IMG/VR virus record: IMGVR_UViG_2898571807_000002
Location: 1 to 64,000 of that record
Strand: one strand, 5' to 3'
From: a virus
Taxonomy: Duplodnaviria; Caudoviricetes
Length of the DNA: 64,000 nt
A program made the translations under genes and the position numbers. Positions 23,450-30,538 of the stretch are shown here, piece after piece (position 1 is the first letter of the stretch; every line of letters begins with the position of its first letter). The notes under the pieces were generated by a model. The model made no database searches. It had not been told where the DNA came from and saw only the letters and a list, made by a program, of their open reading frames with translations.

Positions 23450-24502
23450 GTGACCGAACTTGTCCCCCACGGCACCGAAGGTCTTCCGGTGGCCCGCCTA
23501 CTCACGATCACCGGGCCTCCGAAGGGAACCGCCGACCCCTACGTGGCTTACAAAGACTCGCTCGACAGTCCCGAGTCCAAGACCACCATGACGAGGTGCC
23601 TCGACCGGATCGCATTAATGATTCTTGAGGCGGAGATCGGCGGGCCGCTCCCCCGAGACCACCCACCGGTGACCGGCGCAGGGCGTTCCTGGTGGCTCCT
23701 GCGATATGAGCACACCTCACGTATCCGCGCCCTACTGGTAGCAAGGGGCTGGTCACCCAGCAACGTCAATAAGCACCTGTCGGCGCTTCGCCGGGTCCTT
23801 GAAGAGTGCAAGTTCCTCGGCCTGATGACAGCAGACGAGTACGACGCGGCTGCCCGAATCAAGAACGTAGAGGCTAAGCGGGAGAAAGCTGGCCGGAGTC
23901 TCGACTCGGACGAACTGTTCTCGATGCTGCGCGTGTGCGCGAACGTTGATGGAGCGTCAGGGGTTCGCGATGCCGCTCTGATCTCTGTCCTTTGGTGCAC
24001 GGGCGCGCGACGCGAAGAGGTCGCGAACATCCTGCTTGAGCGCTACGACGCTGGCGCCCGGGCGCTCCGCATCATCGGCAAGGGCAACAAAGAACGCACC
24101 GTGTACATCCATCCGCAGGTACTCCCCCACCTCAACGCCTGGCTGGCGTTGCTCGGGGCGCGCCGCGGTCCGATGTTCCGCCCGGTCGACCGGTGGGGCC
24201 ATGTGCGTTCGGACTCAATGTCCAAGCGCGCGATCGGAATGGTGGTCGCCCGAGTTCGCGCCCGCGCAGGGCTACCGCCACTGTCCACCCACGACTTCCG
24301 CCACACCTTCATCGGTGACCTACTCGACAAGGGCGTGGACCTGGCTACGGTGCAGGCGCTCGTCGGGCACGCCTCTCCTGTCACTACCGCGTCCTACGAT
24401 CGGCGACCAGAGCGCGTCAAACGCGAAGCCGTGGACAGCCTGGACTTCCCTGGGCCGCAGGCTGCTACCCCGCCCCTGGCGGATGACGACACCGAGGAGT
24501 GA
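23450..24502 (+). CDS. tyrosine recombinase (XerC/D-like integrase or resolvase)
   Basis: TGARREE, GKGNK, HDFRH, LVGH, TASY catalytic motifs. Confidence 0.95.
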   Translation: MTELVPHGTEGLPVARLLTITGPPKGTADPYVAYKDSLDSPESKTTMTRCLDRIALMILEAEIGGPLPRDHPPVTGAGRSWWLLRYEHTSRIRALLVARGWSPSNVNKHLSALRRVLEECKFLGLMTADEYDAAARIKNVEAKREKAGRSLDSDELFSMLRVCANVDGASGVRDAALISVLWCTGARREEVANILLERYDAGARALRIIGKGNKERTVYIHPQVLPHLNAWLALLGARRGPMFRPVDRWGHVRSDSMSKRAIGMVVARVRARAGLPPLSTHDFRHTFIGDLLDKGVDLATVQALVGHASPVTTASYDRRPERVKREAVDSLDFPGPQAATPPLADDDTEE

Positions 24503-26340: not shown

Positions 26341-26421
26341 GTACCTCCCGGTGCGAAGGCCACGGGTTACTTCTTTCACCCAGAAACCCAACCCGAGGCT
26401 GTCTCTGATCTCGGGAGGCAC
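26341..26421 (+). ncRNA. Y RNA-like unit 1 (short, no tRNA domain)
   Basis: GTACCTCCCG-GTGCG ... GATCT-CGGGAGGCAC terminal stem; upstream of the TROVE gene. Confidence 0.75.
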
Positions 26422-26427
26422 GACAAC

Positions 26428-26584
26428 TTCAGAGCGCGCCCGGTGCGATAGGTGAGGGCTACTTCCTCTGCAAAAGGAGAGACGCGGGTTCGAATCCCGC
26501 CGCCAGCTCACGCTGGTGTGGACGAGTGGCCTAAGTCGCTTACGTTTCCTTCGCCGACCTTTGATCTCGGGCGCGTCCTCTGAA
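26428..26584 (+). ncRNA. Y RNA-like unit 2 (YrlA-like; permuted tRNA-Cys domain)
   Basis: CGCGCCCG-GTGCG / GATCT-CGGGCGCG stem; anticodon arm TTCCT-CTGCAAA-AGGAG, T arm GCGGG-TTCGAAT-CCCGC, closed acceptor CGCCAGC-TCAC-GCTGGTG, D arm GAC-GAGTGGCCTAA-GTC. Confidence 0.85.
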
Positions 26585-26597
26585 CACAACTGAATAC

Positions 26598-26728
26598 GCA
26601 CCTCCCGGTGCGTAGGCGATAACGGGTACTTCGCAGGTTCGATTCCTGTCGCGGGCCGCCGTCAGGCTTCCGCTCGCGACGCCCATGTTGGGGGCATCCC
26701 CGTACGCCGACTTGATCTCGGGAGGAGC
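26598..26728 (+). ncRNA. Y RNA-like unit 3 (degenerate tRNA-like domain)
   Basis: CCTCCCG-GTGCG / GATCT-CGGGAGG stem; T arm GCAGG-TTCGATT-CCTGT; acceptor-like CGCGGGC/GCTCGCG. Confidence 0.75.
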
Positions 26729-26736
26729 ACATACAT

Positions 26737-26890
26737 CGCGGGTGCCCGGTGCGAAGGCAACGGCTCCTTCCTTGTTAATTCATGGGTCGTGGGTTCAAAT
26801 CCCACCACCGTCTTCGGGCGGTGTAGCTCAGTTCGGCAGAGCAATGAACGTGTCGACCGTCGCCGACTTCTGATCTCGGGCGCCACCGCG
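26737..26890 (+). ncRNA. Y RNA-like unit 4 (YrlA-like; permuted tRNA-Asn-like domain)
   Basis: GGTGCCCG-GTGCG / GATCT-CGGGCGCC stem; TGTTAA-TTCAT, T arm GTGGG-TTCAAAT-CCCAC, acceptor CACCGTC-TTCG-GGCGGTG, D arm GCTC-AGTTCGGCA-GAGC, then ATGAA. Confidence 0.85.
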
Positions 26891-26896
26891 AACAGT

Positions 26897-26930
26897 GAGG
26901 CTCCTCTCCCCCCTGCGAGAGGAGCTTTTC
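26897..26930 (+). terminator. hairpin plus T tract overlapping the Ro60 RBS
   Basis: 9-bp perfect stem GCTCCTCTC/GAGAGGAGC followed by TTTT; GGAG lies in the 3' arm, 10 nt from ATG 26935. Confidence 0.6.
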
Positions 26931-26934
26931 GCAT

Positions 26935-28539
26935 ATGGCCAAGTTCAACCAGACCGGCACCCGTCCCGCGGCATTCAGCCCTGTGAAGACCGAGCAGGTC
27001 CCGTCCGGACGGACGTACGAGGGTGCACCCGGCTACGCCCGCTCTGACGCCCGCTCGGAACTCTTCCTCCTCGCGGTCGCGAACATGGTCGGCGAGGACA
27101 ACTTCTACGAGAAGGCCGTCGACCGGGACGCCCGTTTCCGTGACCTCGTCCACCAGGTCGCCGTCGACGACGTCGAGTGGATGTCCGAGTTCCTGCCGTG
27201 GCTGCGGAGCGAGGCGAACATGCGCTCGGCGCCCGTCGTCGCGGCGCTGGAGGCCGTCCGGGCGCGGCTGGCCGCGGGCCTGTCCGGTGGTAACCGGCAG
27301 CTCGTCGCGAACGTGCTGCAGCGCGCCGACGAGCCTGGCGAGGCGCTCGCCTACTGGACCTCGACCTACGGTCGCGCGGTGCCGAAGCCGGTGAAGCGCG
27401 GCATCGCGGACGCTGTGCAGCGGCTCTACAACGAGCGGTCCCTGCTGAAGTACGACACAGCCACCAAGGGATTCCGGTTCGGTGACGTGATCGACCTCGT
27501 CCACCCGGCGCCGGCGGCGGACAAGCCGTGGCAGGGTGCCCTGTTCGAGCACGCGCTCGACCGGCGTCACGGCCGCGACAGCGAGCCTGCGCTGCCGATG
27601 CTGCTGGCCCGCGAGACGCTCATGGCGGTGCCCGTCGCCGAGCGCCGCGGCGTGCTGCTCGCCGCGGACGGCCCGGAGCGGCTGCGCGCGGCGGGCATCA
27701 CCTGGGAGGCCCTCGCGGGCTGGCTCCAGGGGCCGATGGACTCCGCGGCGTGGGAGGCGGTCATCCCGTCCATGGGGTACATGGCGCTGCTGCGGAACCT
27801 GAGGAACTTCGACGAGGCGGGGGTCTCCGACGAGGTCGCGGAGCGTGTCGCGGCGAGGCTGGCGGATCCGGATGAGGTCGCGCGGTCGCGGCAGTTCCCG
27901 TTCCGGTTCTTCTCCGCGTACCTGGCGGCGCCGTCGCTGCGCTGGGGCCACGCCCTCGACAAGGCGCTCACGGCGGCCACGGCGAACGTCCCGGCGTTCC
28001 TGGGCCGCACCCTCGTCCTGGTCGACACCTCGGCGTCGATGAGTTCCGTGGGCGTCTCGGAGCGGTCGAAGATGACGTACGCGCAGATGGCCGCCCTGTT
28101 CGGCGTCGCCCTCGCCGCTCGCGGCAACGACGTCGACCTCCACGGCTTCGCCACCGGCACCTTCCGTCACGCCGTCCGACGCAGCGCGTCCGTGCTGAAG
28201 GAGGTCGATCGGTTCTGTGGGCGGATCGGCGAGGTCGGGCATGGCACGCAGATCGCCGAGTCGGTCCGAGCGACCTACACCGGGCACGACCGGGTGATCA
28301 TCCTGTCCGACATGCAGACTTTCGGCGGAGGCTGGGCCGGGCCCGTCACCTCTGCGGCCCCGAAGCACGTGCCCATGTACGCCTTTAACCTCGCCGGTTA
28401 CAAGCACGGCGCGATCCCGTCCGGCTCAGACAACCGCCATGAGCTGGGCGGCATGACCGACGCGACGTTCCGGCTTATCCCGCTCCTGGAGGCTGGGCGG
28501 AACGCTGCTTGGCCGTGGGAGGAGCAGGCTGCGGCGTGA
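26935..28539 (+). CDS. Ro60/TROVE-domain RNA-binding protein (Rsr-like) with vWA domain
   Basis: DNFYE, KY..., ITWE, MGYMALLRNLRN, SRQFPFRFFSAY, vWA LVDTSASM, GHGT, IILSDMQ. Confidence 0.93.
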   Translation: MAKFNQTGTRPAAFSPVKTEQVPSGRTYEGAPGYARSDARSELFLLAVANMVGEDNFYEKAVDRDARFRDLVHQVAVDDVEWMSEFLPWLRSEANMRSAPVVAALEAVRARLAAGLSGGNRQLVANVLQRADEPGEALAYWTSTYGRAVPKPVKRGIADAVQRLYNERSLLKYDTATKGFRFGDVIDLVHPAPAADKPWQGALFEHALDRRHGRDSEPALPMLLARETLMAVPVAERRGVLLAADGPERLRAAGITWEALAGWLQGPMDSAAWEAVIPSMGYMALLRNLRNFDEAGVSDEVAERVAARLADPDEVARSRQFPFRFFSAYLAAPSLRWGHALDKALTAATANVPAFLGRTLVLVDTSASMSSVGVSERSKMTYAQMAALFGVALAARGNDVDLHGFATGTFRHAVRRSASVLKEVDRFCGRIGEVGHGTQIAESVRATYTGHDRVIILSDMQTFGGGWAGPVTSAAPKHVPMYAFNLAGYKHGAIPSGSDNRHELGGMTDATFRLIPLLEAGRNAAWPWEEQAAA

Positions 28540-28644: not shown

Positions 28645-29460
28645 GTGTGCATGCCCGACGCCACCCCACCCCCCGGAGTCGACACCACCCGCCCCTCCCC
28701 CGCCCGCCTGTACGACTGGGCTCTCGGTGGACGCGACAACTACCAGGTCGACCGAGAAGCGGGCGCCGCCGCGCTCGCAGTCGTGCCGGGGCTCAGGGAG
28801 ACCGCCGTCTACAACCGGGCGTGGTTGAAGCGCGTCGTCCGCTACATGTGCGAGCAGGGCATCCGGCAGTTCATCGACATCGGTTCGGGCCTACCGACTG
28901 CGGAGAACGTCCACCAGGTCGCGCAGCGGCACCACCCGGACGCGCGCGTGGTGTACGTCGACAATGATCCGAGTGTCCACGTGCACGCCAGGGCGCTCCT
29001 GGACGACACGGACCAGGCCGGGCAGACGGCGTTCGTCCTGGCCGATGTCCGCGCCCCGAACACGATCATGGCCACGGCCGAGGTCGACCGGCTGATCGAC
29101 CTGTCCCAACCTGTTGGGCTGATCATCGCGGCCGTGCTGCATTTCGTCGGCGGCAACGATGACCCCGCCGACCTGGTCGCGCGGTTGACCGGGCCGCTCA
29201 GCCCAGGCGGGTACGTCGCAATCTCCCACGCCACCACGGAAGGCGCGTCACCGGAGGCCCTCGCCGCGGTGGATGCGGTGTTCCGGAACGCTTCGGAGTA
29301 CCAGTACGTACGGTCGCGTGACGAGATCGAGCGGATCCTGAACGCCGTGCCCCGCGGGTTGATGATGGACCCGGGGCTCGTCCCGGTGCATGAATGGCGC
29401 CCTGACGAGCGCGTCCCGGAGCCGCCGATGGCGCTGCTCGGTGCCGTGCTGCGCCTCTAG
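28645..29460 (+). CDS. actinobacterial SAM-dependent methyltransferase (Methyltransf_19)
   Basis: PSPARLYDWALGGRDNYQVDR, GIRQFIDIGSGLPT, VVYVDNDP. Confidence 0.9.
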   Translation: MCMPDATPPPGVDTTRPSPARLYDWALGGRDNYQVDREAGAAALAVVPGLRETAVYNRAWLKRVVRYMCEQGIRQFIDIGSGLPTAENVHQVAQRHHPDARVVYVDNDPSVHVHARALLDDTDQAGQTAFVLADVRAPNTIMATAEVDRLIDLSQPVGLIIAAVLHFVGGNDDPADLVARLTGPLSPGGYVAISHATTEGASPEALAAVDAVFRNASEYQYVRSRDEIERILNAVPRGLMMDPGLVPVHEWRPDERVPEPPMALLGAVLRL

Positions 29461-30299
29461 TGGGCCTTTGCCGCGATCTCGGCGAGGCGGCGCCGGGACT
29501 CTTTGACCGGCAACGCTGATGGCAGGATCGCCTCCCACAGGTTGACGAAGGGCGTCACCTGGTTGGGGTCCTCTCTCCAGGTCTCGCCGCCGGCGGAGGG
29601 GATGTAGACGACCTCGGGGTCGATCACGTTCTCGAAACTGAGGTGAGCGAACCCCGGCGGGAGGGGCCTGCGGGCCTCGAACGGGTAAATCGACAGGCGC
29701 ACATTCGGTGAGGAGGCGAGTTTGGCTAGGTGGTCGAGTTGCGCGGCGTGTACGTCGGGGCCGCCGACCTGCTGCCACAGCACTCCCTCTCCGACGACCG
29801 CCCACATGGTGAGCGGGTCTGGCTCTTGGAGGAGCCGCTGCCGCTCGGTCCCCATCGCCGCTGCGGCCTCGCCCCGCGCGGGGTCTTGGTGCAGCGCCCG
29901 CGCGTAGTCGGGTGCCTGGAGAAGCGCCGGGATCTGCACGGGCGCCACGATCCGGATCAGGGACGCCTCCTGCTCAAGGCCGATGTAGATCGATTCGGCT
30001 TCGCTCAGCTTTAGCTTGTGCCTCTCCCACCACCCCCGGTTCCTACCCTCCTCTGCGTAGGTGAGGAGTTCGGCGCGGCGCTGGGGTTCGGCGTCTTCGG
30101 TGACGCCGTACGCGTCGAGGAGCTGCTCGACCAGGTGAAGCTTGGGGAGCTTCCAGTCGTTGCGCTCGATGTGCGTCAAGCTGGACGGCGTCCACCCGAG
30201 TGCGCGGGCGACCTGGTCGGCGGTCTGGCCTGTGCTCTCGCGGAGTCGTAGGAGCTCACGGCTTAGGTGGCGGCGTCGTCCGACGGGGCTGGTTCTCAT
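29457..30299 (-). CDS. XRE HTH plus DUF5753 regulator
   Basis: RRRHLSRELLRLRE..GQTADQVA; IPALLQAPDYA; AVVGEGVL..QVGG. Confidence 0.85.
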   Translation of the reverse strand: MRTSPVGRRRHLSRELLRLRESTGQTADQVARALGWTPSSLTHIERNDWKLPKLHLVEQLLDAYGVTEDAEPQRRAELLTYAEEGRNRGWWERHKLKLSEAESIYIGLEQEASLIRIVAPVQIPALLQAPDYARALHQDPARGEAAAAMGTERQRLLQEPDPLTMWAVVGEGVLWQQVGGPDVHAAQLDHLAKLASSPNVRLSIYPFEARRPLPPGFAHLSFENVIDPEVVYIPSAGGETWREDPNQVTPFVNLWEAILPSALPVKESRRRLAEIAAKAH

Positions 30300-30538
30300 G
30301 GCGGGGCCCCGAATCGTAGGTCTTTTCCTGCTGCGATCTTCAGTCTGGTGCAGGTTATAACCCCACACAAGACCGGGTTTTGAGTCTTGCAAAAAGTCAA
30401 TCGGAGTGGGAGCGTGTCCTGCACGTGCACGGATGTTGCTTGACTCGTCAATAGTGGACAGCAGGTCGCGCTACCAGGCGGCCCTTGACTCAGTCGGACT
30501 CCTCGTGCACATAAGGAGCCCGACCGGAGAGCCAGGCG

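What the first reader, a model, noticed from the sequence alone, without database searches (positions are those of the whole stretch)
26463..26538. Complete circularly permuted tRNA-Cys inside Y-RNA unit 2
Seen, in order: anticodon arm TTCCT-CT GCA AA-AGGAG (GCA at 26470-26472), 4-nt variable loop, canonical T arm, acceptor 3' strand followed by T (the U73 position), closing loop, acceptor 5' strand, D arm. The permutation break falls between the D and anticodon arms. Known: GCA and U73 are CysRS identity elements; in typical YrlA RNAs the anticodon arm is opened into the Ro-binding stem. A second TTCCT at 26546-26550 could also pair with AGGAG, allowing two conformers. Inference: either a decoy for Cys-anticodon nucleases or CysRS, or a precursor that could be matured into a real tRNA, as with permuted tRNA genes of red algae and archaea.
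Basis: partly seen in the sequence, partly recalled or inferred. Interest (0 to 1): 0.8.

Follow-up and report, generated by a model that had tools for sequence, protein, structure and literature searches.

The report
Ro60 partner RNA carrying whole tRNA-Cys mimic
One of four small RNAs encoded just upstream of a prophage Ro60 gene contains a complete, back-to-front copy of a cysteine tRNA, anticodon loop included; about 140 related RNAs share this design, and the published descriptions I could read call that hairpin a "variable arm".

Summary
At 26463-26538 every listed element is present, and ARAGORN calls the re-joined sequence tRNA-Cys(GCA).

It is not a stand-alone oddity. It is the tRNA-like module of unit 2 (26428-26584), one of four tandem YrlA-type Y RNAs upstream of rsr (Ro60, 26935-28539) in a provirus of a Streptosporangiales-like actinomycete.

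Of 219 homologous units parsed with a D arm, 141 (136 distinct) have the same 7-nt-loop hairpin 4-5 nt before the T arm:
- 89 of the 136 loops are identical to a real anticodon loop of a related actinomycete.
- 133 of 136 re-joined modules are called tRNAs, covering 18 amino-acid identities.

Covariation refines the anatomy. The top two pairs of the anticodon stem are made by the two bases after the D arm (26539-26540 with 26479-26478), not by the conserved UU. So the Ro60-binding stem branches out between tRNA positions 28 and 29.

The GCA triplet is not conserved: the nearest relative has CUC in an otherwise identical 5' half. However, U8-G9, G13·A22, the 4-nt variable loop and U73 make unit 2 Cys-like.

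It is most likely a Ro60-bound tRNA mimic, not a decoding tRNA. A decoy role or charging remains untested. I rate it a new variant of a known kind.

The parts
26428..26584 (+). Y-RNA unit 2, whole (YrlA-type), second of four tandem units upstream of rsr
   Evidence: Repeat families D1-D5 define the four units. The fold has z = -4.4, with a terminal stem pairing the two ends. Rfam YrlA matches the unit's core only weakly, at 14.7 bits.
26439..26447 (+). Conserved 5' box CCCGGUGCG, the presumed Ro60-contact strand
   Evidence: Shared by units 1, 2 and 4 and by nearly all homologous units. That it contacts Ro60 is inferred from PMC4201824.
26451..26458 (+). 5' strand (GGUGAGGG) of the Y-stem helix nearest the tRNA module
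   Evidence: Pairs 8/8 with 26548-26555. Homologs average 6.9 of 8 pairs with their own partner against 6.0 with shuffled partners. It is also in the minimum-energy fold.
26459..26464 (+). Conserved linker CUAC-UU (the YUAY box plus an invariant UU)
   Evidence: Columns 2-6 of alignment A1 are nearly invariant. The UU never covaries with nt 42-43.
26465..26467 (+). Anticodon-stem 5' strand, nt 29-31 (CCU)
   Evidence: Pairs with 26477-26475. In 101 homologs the pairs at nt 30-40 and 31-39 each show four Watson-Crick pair types; 29-41 is almost invariant C-G.
26468..26474 (+). Anticodon-type loop CUGCAAA, with GCA at 26470-26472
   Evidence: Identical to the loop of the real tRNA-Cys of Spirillospora. 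Family-wide, U33 is present in 128/136 units, R37 in 129/136 and A38 in 127/136.
26475..26479 (+). Anticodon-stem 3' strand, nt 39-43 (AGGAG)
26480..26483 (+). Four-nt variable loop AGAC (no nt 47; C48 partners G15)
   Evidence: Read directly. Homologs have 4 or 5 nt here.
26484..26500 (+). T arm GCGGG-UUCGAAU-CCCGC
26501..26518 (+). Acceptor stem of 7 bp closed by the cap UCAC (26508-26511). U26508 is at the place of nt 73 and G26512 at nt 1.
   Evidence: all seven pairs covary. 99 of 136 homologs have 7/7 pairs.
26519..26538 (+). U8, G9, D arm (GACG-AGUGGCCUA-AGUC, with G13·A22) and G26
   Evidence: In the Spirillospora tRNA set, U8-G9 plus G13·A22 in a short-variable-loop body occurs only in tRNA-Cys.
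26539..26540 (+). nt 27-28 (CU): top two pairs of the anticodon stem, with G26479 and A26478
   Evidence: Pair 27:43 is Watson-Crick in 123/136 units and 28:42 in 124/136, against 66 and 61 in shuffles. In the tool count there are 24 and 44 double changes.
26541..26547 (+). 3' linker UACGUUU between nt 28 and the Y stem
   Evidence: A conserved UACGU or UUGU follows nt 28 in homologs. Its structure is not resolved.
26548..26555 (+).
26563..26571 (+). Conserved 3' box GAUCUCGGG
   Evidence: Repeat family D1.
26935..28539 (+). rsr, the Ro60 (TROVE) protein of 534 aa; presumed partner of the four RNAs
   Evidence: Pfam TROVE E = 4e-17. It is 73-79% identical to Rsr of Streptosporangiales.

Best explanation
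Unit 2 is a YrlA-class Y RNA. Its two ends pair into a long stem carrying the boxes that Ro60 (Rsr) is thought to bind. Its other end is a complete tRNA mimic wired back to front, in this order:
- nt 29-31
- an authentic anticodon loop (Cys type, CUGCAAA)
- nt 39-43
- a 4-nt variable loop
- the T arm
- a 7-bp acceptor stem closed by a 4-nt cap
- U8 G9
- the D arm
- nt 26-28

The anticodon stem is composite. Nt 27-28 come from the strand that leaves the D arm and nt 29-31 from the strand that enters from the Y stem. The Ro60-binding stem therefore branches out of the anticodon stem between nt 28 and 29.

Shown here: the anatomy, its conservation and its covariation.

Inferred: the RNA is made together with its three neighbours and bound by the prophage's Rsr. 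It offers cellular tRNA-handling proteins (RNase P, the CCA-adding enzyme, modification enzymes, perhaps others) a tRNA-Cys look-alike tethered to Ro60. It does not decode. The Cys identity is one of many interchangeable identities in this family.
For: Context:
- Four tandem units lie directly upstream of a TROVE gene on the same strand.
- Unit 4 matches Rfam YrlA at 49 bits, E = 6e-10.

Family-wide anatomy:
- 141 of 219 homologous units from 160 viral and bacterial rsr loci have a 5-bp stem and 7-nt loop ending 4-5 nt before the T arm.
- On 101 aligned units, 98.3% of cells pair. All five helices hold pairs with changes on both sides (19 of 21 pairs); sliding the partners drops pairing to 32-48%.

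Composite stem:
- Pair 43:27 reads GC 72, CG 21, AU 3. Pair 42:28 reads GC 53, AU 38, CG 3, UA 3.
- The alternative UU pairs never change on both sides and are mismatched in 21 units.

tRNA likeness:
- ARAGORN calls unit 2 tRNA-Cys and of 136 re-joined modules tRNAs.
- 89 of 136 loops are identical to real anticodon loops of Spirillospora.

Cys-like features of unit 2: loop CUGCAAA, U8-G9, G13·A22, C48, a 4-nt variable loop and U at nt 73.

Published data: M. smegmatis YrlA is bound by Rsr, cleaved by RNase P and given CCA in vivo. Its probe sequences contain CCA-CUUCUAA-UGG, the same hairpin (PMC4201824).
Against: - Unit 2 itself scores only 14.7 bits on Rfam YrlA, whose cut-off is 69.
- No expression, Rsr-binding or processing data exist for this RNA; no RNA run was listed.
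- The 3-bp plus 2-bp stem is too weak to be predicted by energy alone. The minimum-energy fold picks another register, CUCU/AGAG.
- How the three helices stack is unknown.
- The exact match to real anticodon loops and the fast-switching triplets hint at a function that reads the anticodon, which a generic 'tRNA-shaped handle' does not explain.
Confidence: 0.75

Rival explanations
1. Isoacceptor-specific bait. The anticodon arm is the working part. The Ro60-tethered mimic is a decoy or sensor for enzymes that read a particular anticodon loop, for instance tRNA-cutting toxins or defence nucleases. This would protect real tRNA-Cys or report its cleavage. It is compatible with the best explanation and adds a function to it.
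For: - Loops copy real anticodon loops exactly.
- The triplet changes about 9 times faster than the rest of the module in close relatives: 0.279 against 0.032 differences per site.
- The window and its nearest relative differ at 3 of 3 triplet bases and at 0 of 40 other positions of the 5' half.
- Loci carry several units with different triplets.
- The cassette is often in proviruses and next to integrases.
- Actinobacteria have nucleases specific for single tRNAs; for example, M. tuberculosis VapC4 cleaves only tRNA-Cys (abstract of PMC13096801).
Against: - No nuclease or toxin gene is linked to the cassette; its neighbours are not conserved.
- The triplet's rate equals that of the acceptor stem (0.265), so relaxed constraint explains it as well as selection does.
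- No cleavage data exist.
Confidence: 0.2
2. A chargeable or maturable tRNA-Cys. RNase P opens the cap at 26511/26512, the 3' end is trimmed and given CCA, and CysRS charges the two-piece molecule. Alternatively, the Y stem is removed to give a true tRNA, as with the permuted tRNA genes of red algae and archaea.
For: - The re-joined sequence is called tRNA-Cys.
- GCA and U73 are the main CysRS identity elements (established knowledge).
- The acceptor stem has 7 bp.
- The permuted-tRNA analogy is raised in 10.1101/312249.
Against: - The base at nt 73 does not follow the triplet across the family. Units with GUU have U 14, C 6, G 6 and A 2 where the Spirillospora tRNA-Asn has G; units with GCA have U 3, C 2 and A 1.
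- The triplet is not conserved among orthologs.
- The Y stem leaves from inside the anticodon stem, so excision would need a cut-and-join activity not reported in bacteria (10.1101/312249).
- A close relative's genome already has its own tRNA-Cys.
Confidence: 0.1
3. The hairpin is a variable arm, as labelled 'V' in the YrlA literature. On this reading the anticodon stem is simply the start of the Y stem.
For: Chen et al. [quoted passage not shown] The conserved YUAY box precedes it.
Against: - The strand that pairs with nt 27-28 lies 3' of the hairpin and is followed by an ordinary 4-5-nt variable loop. Topologically the hairpin is therefore on the anticodon side.
- Its 7-nt loops are real anticodon loops.
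- ARAGORN accepts it as the anticodon arm in 133 of 136 units.
Confidence: 0.05

Closest known systems
YrlA, the tRNA-like Y RNA of bacteria and mycobacteriophages (Rfam RF02553; Chen et al. 2014, PMC4201824; structure in Wang et al. 2018, 10.1101/312249)
   Same: It is encoded upstream of rsr. Its ends pair into a stem with a conserved 5' box. It has a T arm, then a closed acceptor stem, then a D arm, with tRNA tertiary nucleotides. Tandem Y RNAs occur in one locus.
   Different: The Rfam consensus and the Salmonella structure have no anticodon loop; the structure paper says that YrlA 'lacks the anticodon loop'. Here a full anticodon stem-loop is present and the Y stem leaves after nt 28. The literature calls this hairpin 'V'.
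Genuine tRNA-Cys(GCA) of actinomycetes (example taken from Spirillospora sp.)
   Same: Loop CUGCAAA, U8-G9, G13·A22, C48, a 4-nt variable loop, U73, and 5 of 7 bases of the acceptor 5' strand.
   Different: The order of the halves is reversed, the acceptor end is capped, and a roughly 60-nt Y stem is inserted in the anticodon stem. The D loop (AGUGGCCUA) and T loop (UUCGAAU) are those of tRNA-Glu. Overall body similarity is no higher to Cys than to Glu or Ser.
Circularly permuted tRNA genes of Cyanidioschyzon merolae and Thermofilum (as cited in 10.1101/312249)
   Same: The 3' half precedes the 5' half, and the acceptor ends are joined by a short spacer that RNase P or Z would open.
   Different: Those are matured through a circular intermediate by the archaeal or eukaryal splicing endonuclease and then decode. 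No such enzyme is reported in bacteria, and here the junction carries a Ro60-binding stem.
Un-permuted 'tRNA-shaped Y RNAs' beside phage and giant-virus Ro60 genes
   Same: A tRNA body fused to a Ro60-binding module through the anticodon stem.
   Different: In those, the tRNA ends are free and the Y module is a hairpin that replaces the anticodon loop. Here the ends are in the Y module and the anticodon loop is kept.

Membership tests
YrlA / bacterial Y RNA (RF02553) | Encoded next to a Ro60 (TROVE) gene, same strand | tested here: met
   rsr lies at 26935-28539 (Pfam TROVE). The four units fill 26341-26886 directly upstream.
YrlA / bacterial Y RNA (RF02553) | 5' and 3' ends pair into a stem carrying a conserved 5' box | tested here: met
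   There is a terminal stem in the fold. The boxes CCCGGUGCG and GAUCUCGGG are shared by the units and their homologs. The inner helix pairs 8/8.
YrlA / bacterial Y RNA (RF02553) | tRNA-like module in the order T arm, closed acceptor stem, D arm | tested here: met
YrlA / bacterial Y RNA (RF02553) | Score at or above Rfam's gathering threshold (69 bits) | tested here: not met
   Unit 2 scores 14.7 bits, unit 3 scores 19.2 and unit 4 scores 49.4. The model has no anticodon hairpin, which probably costs unit 2 most of the score.
YrlA / bacterial Y RNA (RF02553) | Bound by Rsr; modified by TruB and DusA | not testable with these tools
   This needs immunoprecipitation and modification mapping.
Canonical tRNA gene (RF00005) | Contiguous cloverleaf with free 5' and 3' ends | tested here: not met
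   ARAGORN finds 0 tRNA genes in the window. RF00005 scores 23.9 bits, below its cut-off of 29. The acceptor is capped by UCAC.
Canonical tRNA gene (RF00005) | All four arms and tertiary nucleotides once the halves are re-joined | tested here: met
   ARAGORN calls tRNA-Cys(gca), 74-76 nt.
tRNA-Cys identity | GCA anticodon, U73 and a Cys-type core (13·22 mismatch, 15:48) | tested here: met
   GCA is at 26470-26472, U at 26508, G13·A22 at 26524·26534, and G15/C48 at 26526/26483. The same U8-G9 plus G13·A22 set occurs in the real Spirillospora tRNA-Cys and in no other short-variable-loop tRNA of that genome. Whether it is charged was not tested.
Circularly permuted tRNA genes | Junction processed by a splicing endonuclease through a circular intermediate to give a decoding tRNA | not tested
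   No RNA data are available. The absence of such enzymes in bacteria is taken from 10.1101/312249, not tested here.
Class II variable arm ('V' arm reading) | Extra hairpin placed between nt 44/45 and nt 48, that is, 3' of the strand that pairs with nt 27-31 | tested here: not met
   The hairpin lies 5' of nt 42-43, which pair with nt 28-27. A plain 4-5-nt variable loop follows.

The most novel reading that the evidence does not exclude
Actinobacterial and actinophage YrlA RNAs are Ro60-tethered 'split tRNAs'. They have an authentic anticodon arm whose triplet switches identity rapidly (18 amino-acid identities seen). Their acceptor cap is opened by RNase P and receives CCA, as shown for M. 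smegmatis. They act as isoacceptor-specific baits, either charged by the cognate synthetase or cut by anticodon nucleases, so that Ro60 senses or buffers attacks on particular tRNAs. Unit 2 would be the tRNA-Cys bait of this prophage.
Probability: 0.2. Interest if true: 0.85.

Novelty: new variant of a known kind. Interest (0 to 1): 0.62.

Why it matters
What the tRNA-like half of bacterial Y RNAs binds has been open since 2014. The structural work expected a partner that reads the elbow, and described YrlA as lacking an anticodon loop.

If most actinobacterial and phage YrlA RNAs really carry authentic anticodon arms of many identities, then partners that read anticodons become concrete candidates that can be tested:
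- aminoacyl-tRNA synthetases
- enzymes that modify position 37
- anticodon nucleases of toxin-antitoxin and anti-phage systems

M. smegmatis, where YrlA is already known to be RNase P-cleaved and CCA-tailed, is a ready system for such tests.

The finding also bears on how Y RNAs arose from tRNAs. Whole-body tRNA-Glu and tRNA-Gln look-alikes, and coordinated Glu-to-Cys switches, suggest repeated capture or conversion from tRNA genes.

Tried and rejected
- **Rfam at gathering thresholds:** no hit in the window.
- **blastn of the Y-RNA array against 50,697 phage records:** no match.
- **Minimum-energy folding:** it finds the T and acceptor arms but mis-registers the anticodon hairpin and the D arm, so it cannot decide between the models.
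- **Expression:** no RNA holder was listed for the stretch; read laying was not run.
- **Whole-body similarity of unit 2 to 63 real tRNAs:** ambiguous. Ser(CGA) and Glu score 20, and Cys is not in the top four.
- **Neighbour genes as functional clues:** the integrase, the Methyltransf_19 gene, the HTH/DUF5753 gene and two unknown ORFs are not syntenic with rsr elsewhere.
rejected. That stretch belongs to a conserved helix, and the closest homolog has no second site complementary to its AGGAG strand.
- **U73 as a Cys signal:** rejected as evidence. U is the commonest first cap base family-wide, 44 of 123.
- **Promoter and terminator scan:** nothing useful.
- **Literature:** Burroughs and Aravind 2016, Sim and Wolin 2018 and Sim et al. 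2020 are not held, and the supplements of Chen et al. 2014 are not held either. I therefore cannot exclude that the anticodon-like nature of the 'V' hairpin is noted there.

Full report
**What is in the sequence**

The region 26341-26886 holds four tandem units. Each opens with CCCGGUGCG and closes with GAUCUCGGG. They lie directly upstream of a 534-aa TROVE-domain protein, Rsr/Ro60, at 26935-28539. The record is a 101-kb provirus. Its Rsr is 73-79% identical to those of Spirillospora, Actinomadura, Nonomuraea and other Streptosporangiales. Unit 4 matches Rfam YrlA at 49 bits, unit 3 at 19 bits and unit 2 at 15 bits, all below the curated cut-off of 69.

ARAGORN finds no tRNA in the native order. 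The Rfam tRNA model gives 23.9 bits over 26442-26505. When the two halves are re-joined, ARAGORN calls tRNA-Cys(gca) with normal arms.

**How general it is**

I collected 80 viral and 80 bacterial rsr loci and parsed every T arm upstream of rsr that is preceded by the Y-RNA box.
- Of 277 units, 219 have a recognisable D arm.
- Of those, 141 (136 distinct) have a 5-bp stem and 7-nt loop ending 4-5 nt before the T arm.

The published probe and primer sequences for M. smegmatis YrlA contain CCA-CUUCUAA-UGG followed by AAUGGUC and the T arm (PMC4201824, Methods). The one member of this group that has been studied at the bench therefore has the same hairpin. Chen et al. call it the 'V' stem-loop and equate it with the variable arm. 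Wang et al. state that (Salmonella) YrlA lacks the anticodon loop (10.1101/312249).

**The hairpin is an anticodon arm**
- U33 occurs in 128/136 units, a purine at 37 in 129/136 and A38 in 127/136.
- G36 is followed by G37 in 26 of 29 cases; among the 51 distinct real loops, 14 of the 16 with G36 have G37.
- 89 of 136 loops are letter-for-letter identical to one of the 51 distinct anticodon loops of the 63 Spirillospora tRNAs I could parse. Column-preserving shuffles give 43.8, and 0 of 2000 reach 89.
- ARAGORN accepts 133 of 136 re-joined modules as tRNAs with the expected anticodon, covering 18 amino-acid identities.

**The stem is composite**

The conserved UU of the YUAC-UU box could pair with nt 43 and 42 only because U tolerates both G and A. 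It never covaries and is mismatched wherever nt 43 is C (21 of 101 units).

The two bases that follow the D arm and nt 26 do covary:
- 27:43 is Watson-Crick in 123 of 136 units (C-G 84, G-C 30, U-A 9), against 66 in shuffles.
- 28:42 is Watson-Crick in 124 of 136, with four pair types, against 61 in shuffles.
- Positions 29-31 of that strand show no signal.

The tool count on an independent MAFFT alignment of 101 units agrees. It finds 24 and 44 double changes in these two pairs. Overall, 98.3% of cells pair, falling to 32-48% when partners are slid. These pairs were not used to select the units; the inner three pairs were, so their 100% pairing is by construction, though their four pair types are not.

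In unit 2 this gives C26539-G26479, U26540-A26478, C26465-G26477, C26466-G26476 and U26467-A26475. The Ro60-binding stem thus leaves the tRNA between nt 28 and 29.

In 44 of 76 'open' units, such as unit 4, the strand after the D arm supplies 4-5 pairs and the loop is opened instead. The branch point therefore moves along the same strand.

**The second TTCCT**

Bases 26548-26555 pair 8/8 with 26451-26458, in a helix that homologs keep: 6.9 pairs with their own partner against 6.0 with shuffled partners. The closest homolog, with the same AGGAG strand, has no second complementary site. I therefore do not support the two-conformer idea.

**Is it 'Cys'?**

Against a fixed Cys role:
- The nearest relative (L001, identical to a Nonomuraea locus) is identical to the window at all 40 compared positions from the CUAC box to the end of the T arm, except the three triplet bases: CUC instead of GCA.
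- Two Planotetraspora orthologs differ in the same way, UUC against GCA.
- Across pairs whose core differs by 5% or less, the triplet differs at 0.279 per site. The core differs at 0.032, the flanking loop bases at 0.026 and the acceptor stem at 0.265.
- The base at nt 73 does not follow the triplet.

For a Cys-type module:
- Where the window has GCA it also has G9, a G13·A22 D stem and U73. L001, with CUC, has C9 and the tRNA-Glu D arm.
- In the Spirillospora set, U8-G9 with G13·A22 in a short-variable-loop body occurs only in tRNA-Cys.
- A scan for unit 2's D arm found 15 further tRNA-like modules. In the 11 whose anticodon stem could be placed uniquely or in one of two adjacent registers, the loop contains CUGC, followed by A, U or G.
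- Body type and triplet agree more often than chance overall, 15 of 136 against 6.4. This is driven by whole-body tRNA-Glu and tRNA-Gln look-alikes.

Unit 2 is fairly called a tRNA-Cys mimic, with a tRNA-Glu-like D loop and T loop.

**How it probably works**

Shown here: the anatomy and its conservation.

From the literature: YrlA RNAs bind Rsr, are modified by TruB and DusA, and in M. smegmatis are cut by RNase P and given CCA in vivo (PMC4201824). Phage Ro60 with its Y RNAs can recruit host PNPase (PMC12135203).

Inferred: unit 2 is processed from a multi-unit transcript and bound by the prophage Rsr through its stem. It presents a tethered tRNA-Cys look-alike to tRNA-handling proteins.

Whether anything reads the anticodon is open. 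The exact copying of real loops and the switching triplets make a bait for anticodon-specific enzymes attractive. M. tuberculosis VapC4, for instance, cleaves only tRNA-Cys (PMC13096801). But the triplet's rate is no higher than that of the acceptor stem, no nuclease gene is linked, and there are no RNA data.

Maturation to a decoding tRNA is unlikely. The Y stem sits inside the anticodon stem, and no bacterial enzyme for its removal is reported (10.1101/312249).

**Novelty**

The RNA belongs to a known kind, and the permuted-tRNA analogy is in print. I did not find three things in the papers I could read:
- that the 'V' hairpin is a true anticodon arm with real anticodon loops;
- that its stem is completed by nt 27-28;
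- that its triplet switches identity among close relatives.

Three relevant reviews and analyses were not available to me. This scan has noted related 'tRNA-shaped Y RNAs' on other DNA; those lack the anticodon loop.

Noticed in passing
L215-L241 (e.g. L217:3478-3495, L226:7734-7751, L219:9988-10005): A second RNA class in soil viral and metagenome contigs has the same D arm (GGACGAGYGGCCUAAGUC) and loops that contain CUGC. Its entry box is different (GGUUAUC or GGUUACC), its Y-like stem differs, and some have 5-bp acceptor stems. In 10 of the loci it lies about 0.5-1.5 kb from a gene only about 25% identical to this Rsr. These may be Y RNAs of a divergent Ro60 lineage.
   Followed up: partly
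window 26591-26735 (unit 3); also L083 -300, L082 -295, L085 -285, L092 -279, L094 -280, L137 -331, L142 -134: A third unit type is conserved in Streptosporangiales. The T arm follows the CUUC box directly, with no anticodon arm or variable loop. The acceptor-like stem is long and interrupted, and a non-canonical D-like hairpin (GCCCA-loop-GGGC) takes the place of the D arm.
   Followed up: no
window 26341-26421 (unit 1): A short unit has the Y-stem boxes and the UACUUC box but no tRNA-like module. It resembles the YrlB-type companions described for Salmonella and M. smegmatis.
   Followed up: no
window 26900-26929: A GC-rich hairpin (GCUCCUCUC / GAGAGGAGC) is followed by UUUU and ends 6 nt before the rsr start codon. 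Its 3' arm contains the only GGAG that could serve as a ribosome-binding site. It could be a processing site, an attenuator or a translational control element between the Y RNAs and rsr. The terminator scan did not report it because it has only four U.
   Followed up: no
window 26741-26886 (unit 4): An 'open' unit. AUGAA after the D arm pairs with UUCAU, and UUGUUAA just before it looks like an opened Asn-type anticodon loop. 44 of 76 such units in other loci have a 4-5-bp stem made this way.
   Followed up: partly
L005:2173-2255; L001:2183-2264; L016:2345-2428; L095 -495: Some units are whole-body look-alikes of one tRNA. L005 has the tRNA-Gln D arm, the loop UUCUGGU and the variable loop UAGU. 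L001, L016 and L095 have U8-C9, the tRNA-Glu D arm, a 4-nt variable loop and the loops CUCUCAA or CUUUCAA. This suggests capture or conversion from tRNA genes.
   Followed up: partly
window 23450-24502 and 28645-30392: A tyrosine-type integrase lies 1.8 kb upstream of the Y-RNA array. A Methyltransf_19 gene and an HTH/DUF5753 regulator lie downstream. None is conserved next to rsr in the 160 other loci, so Y RNAs plus rsr behave as a self-contained cassette.
   Followed up: partly
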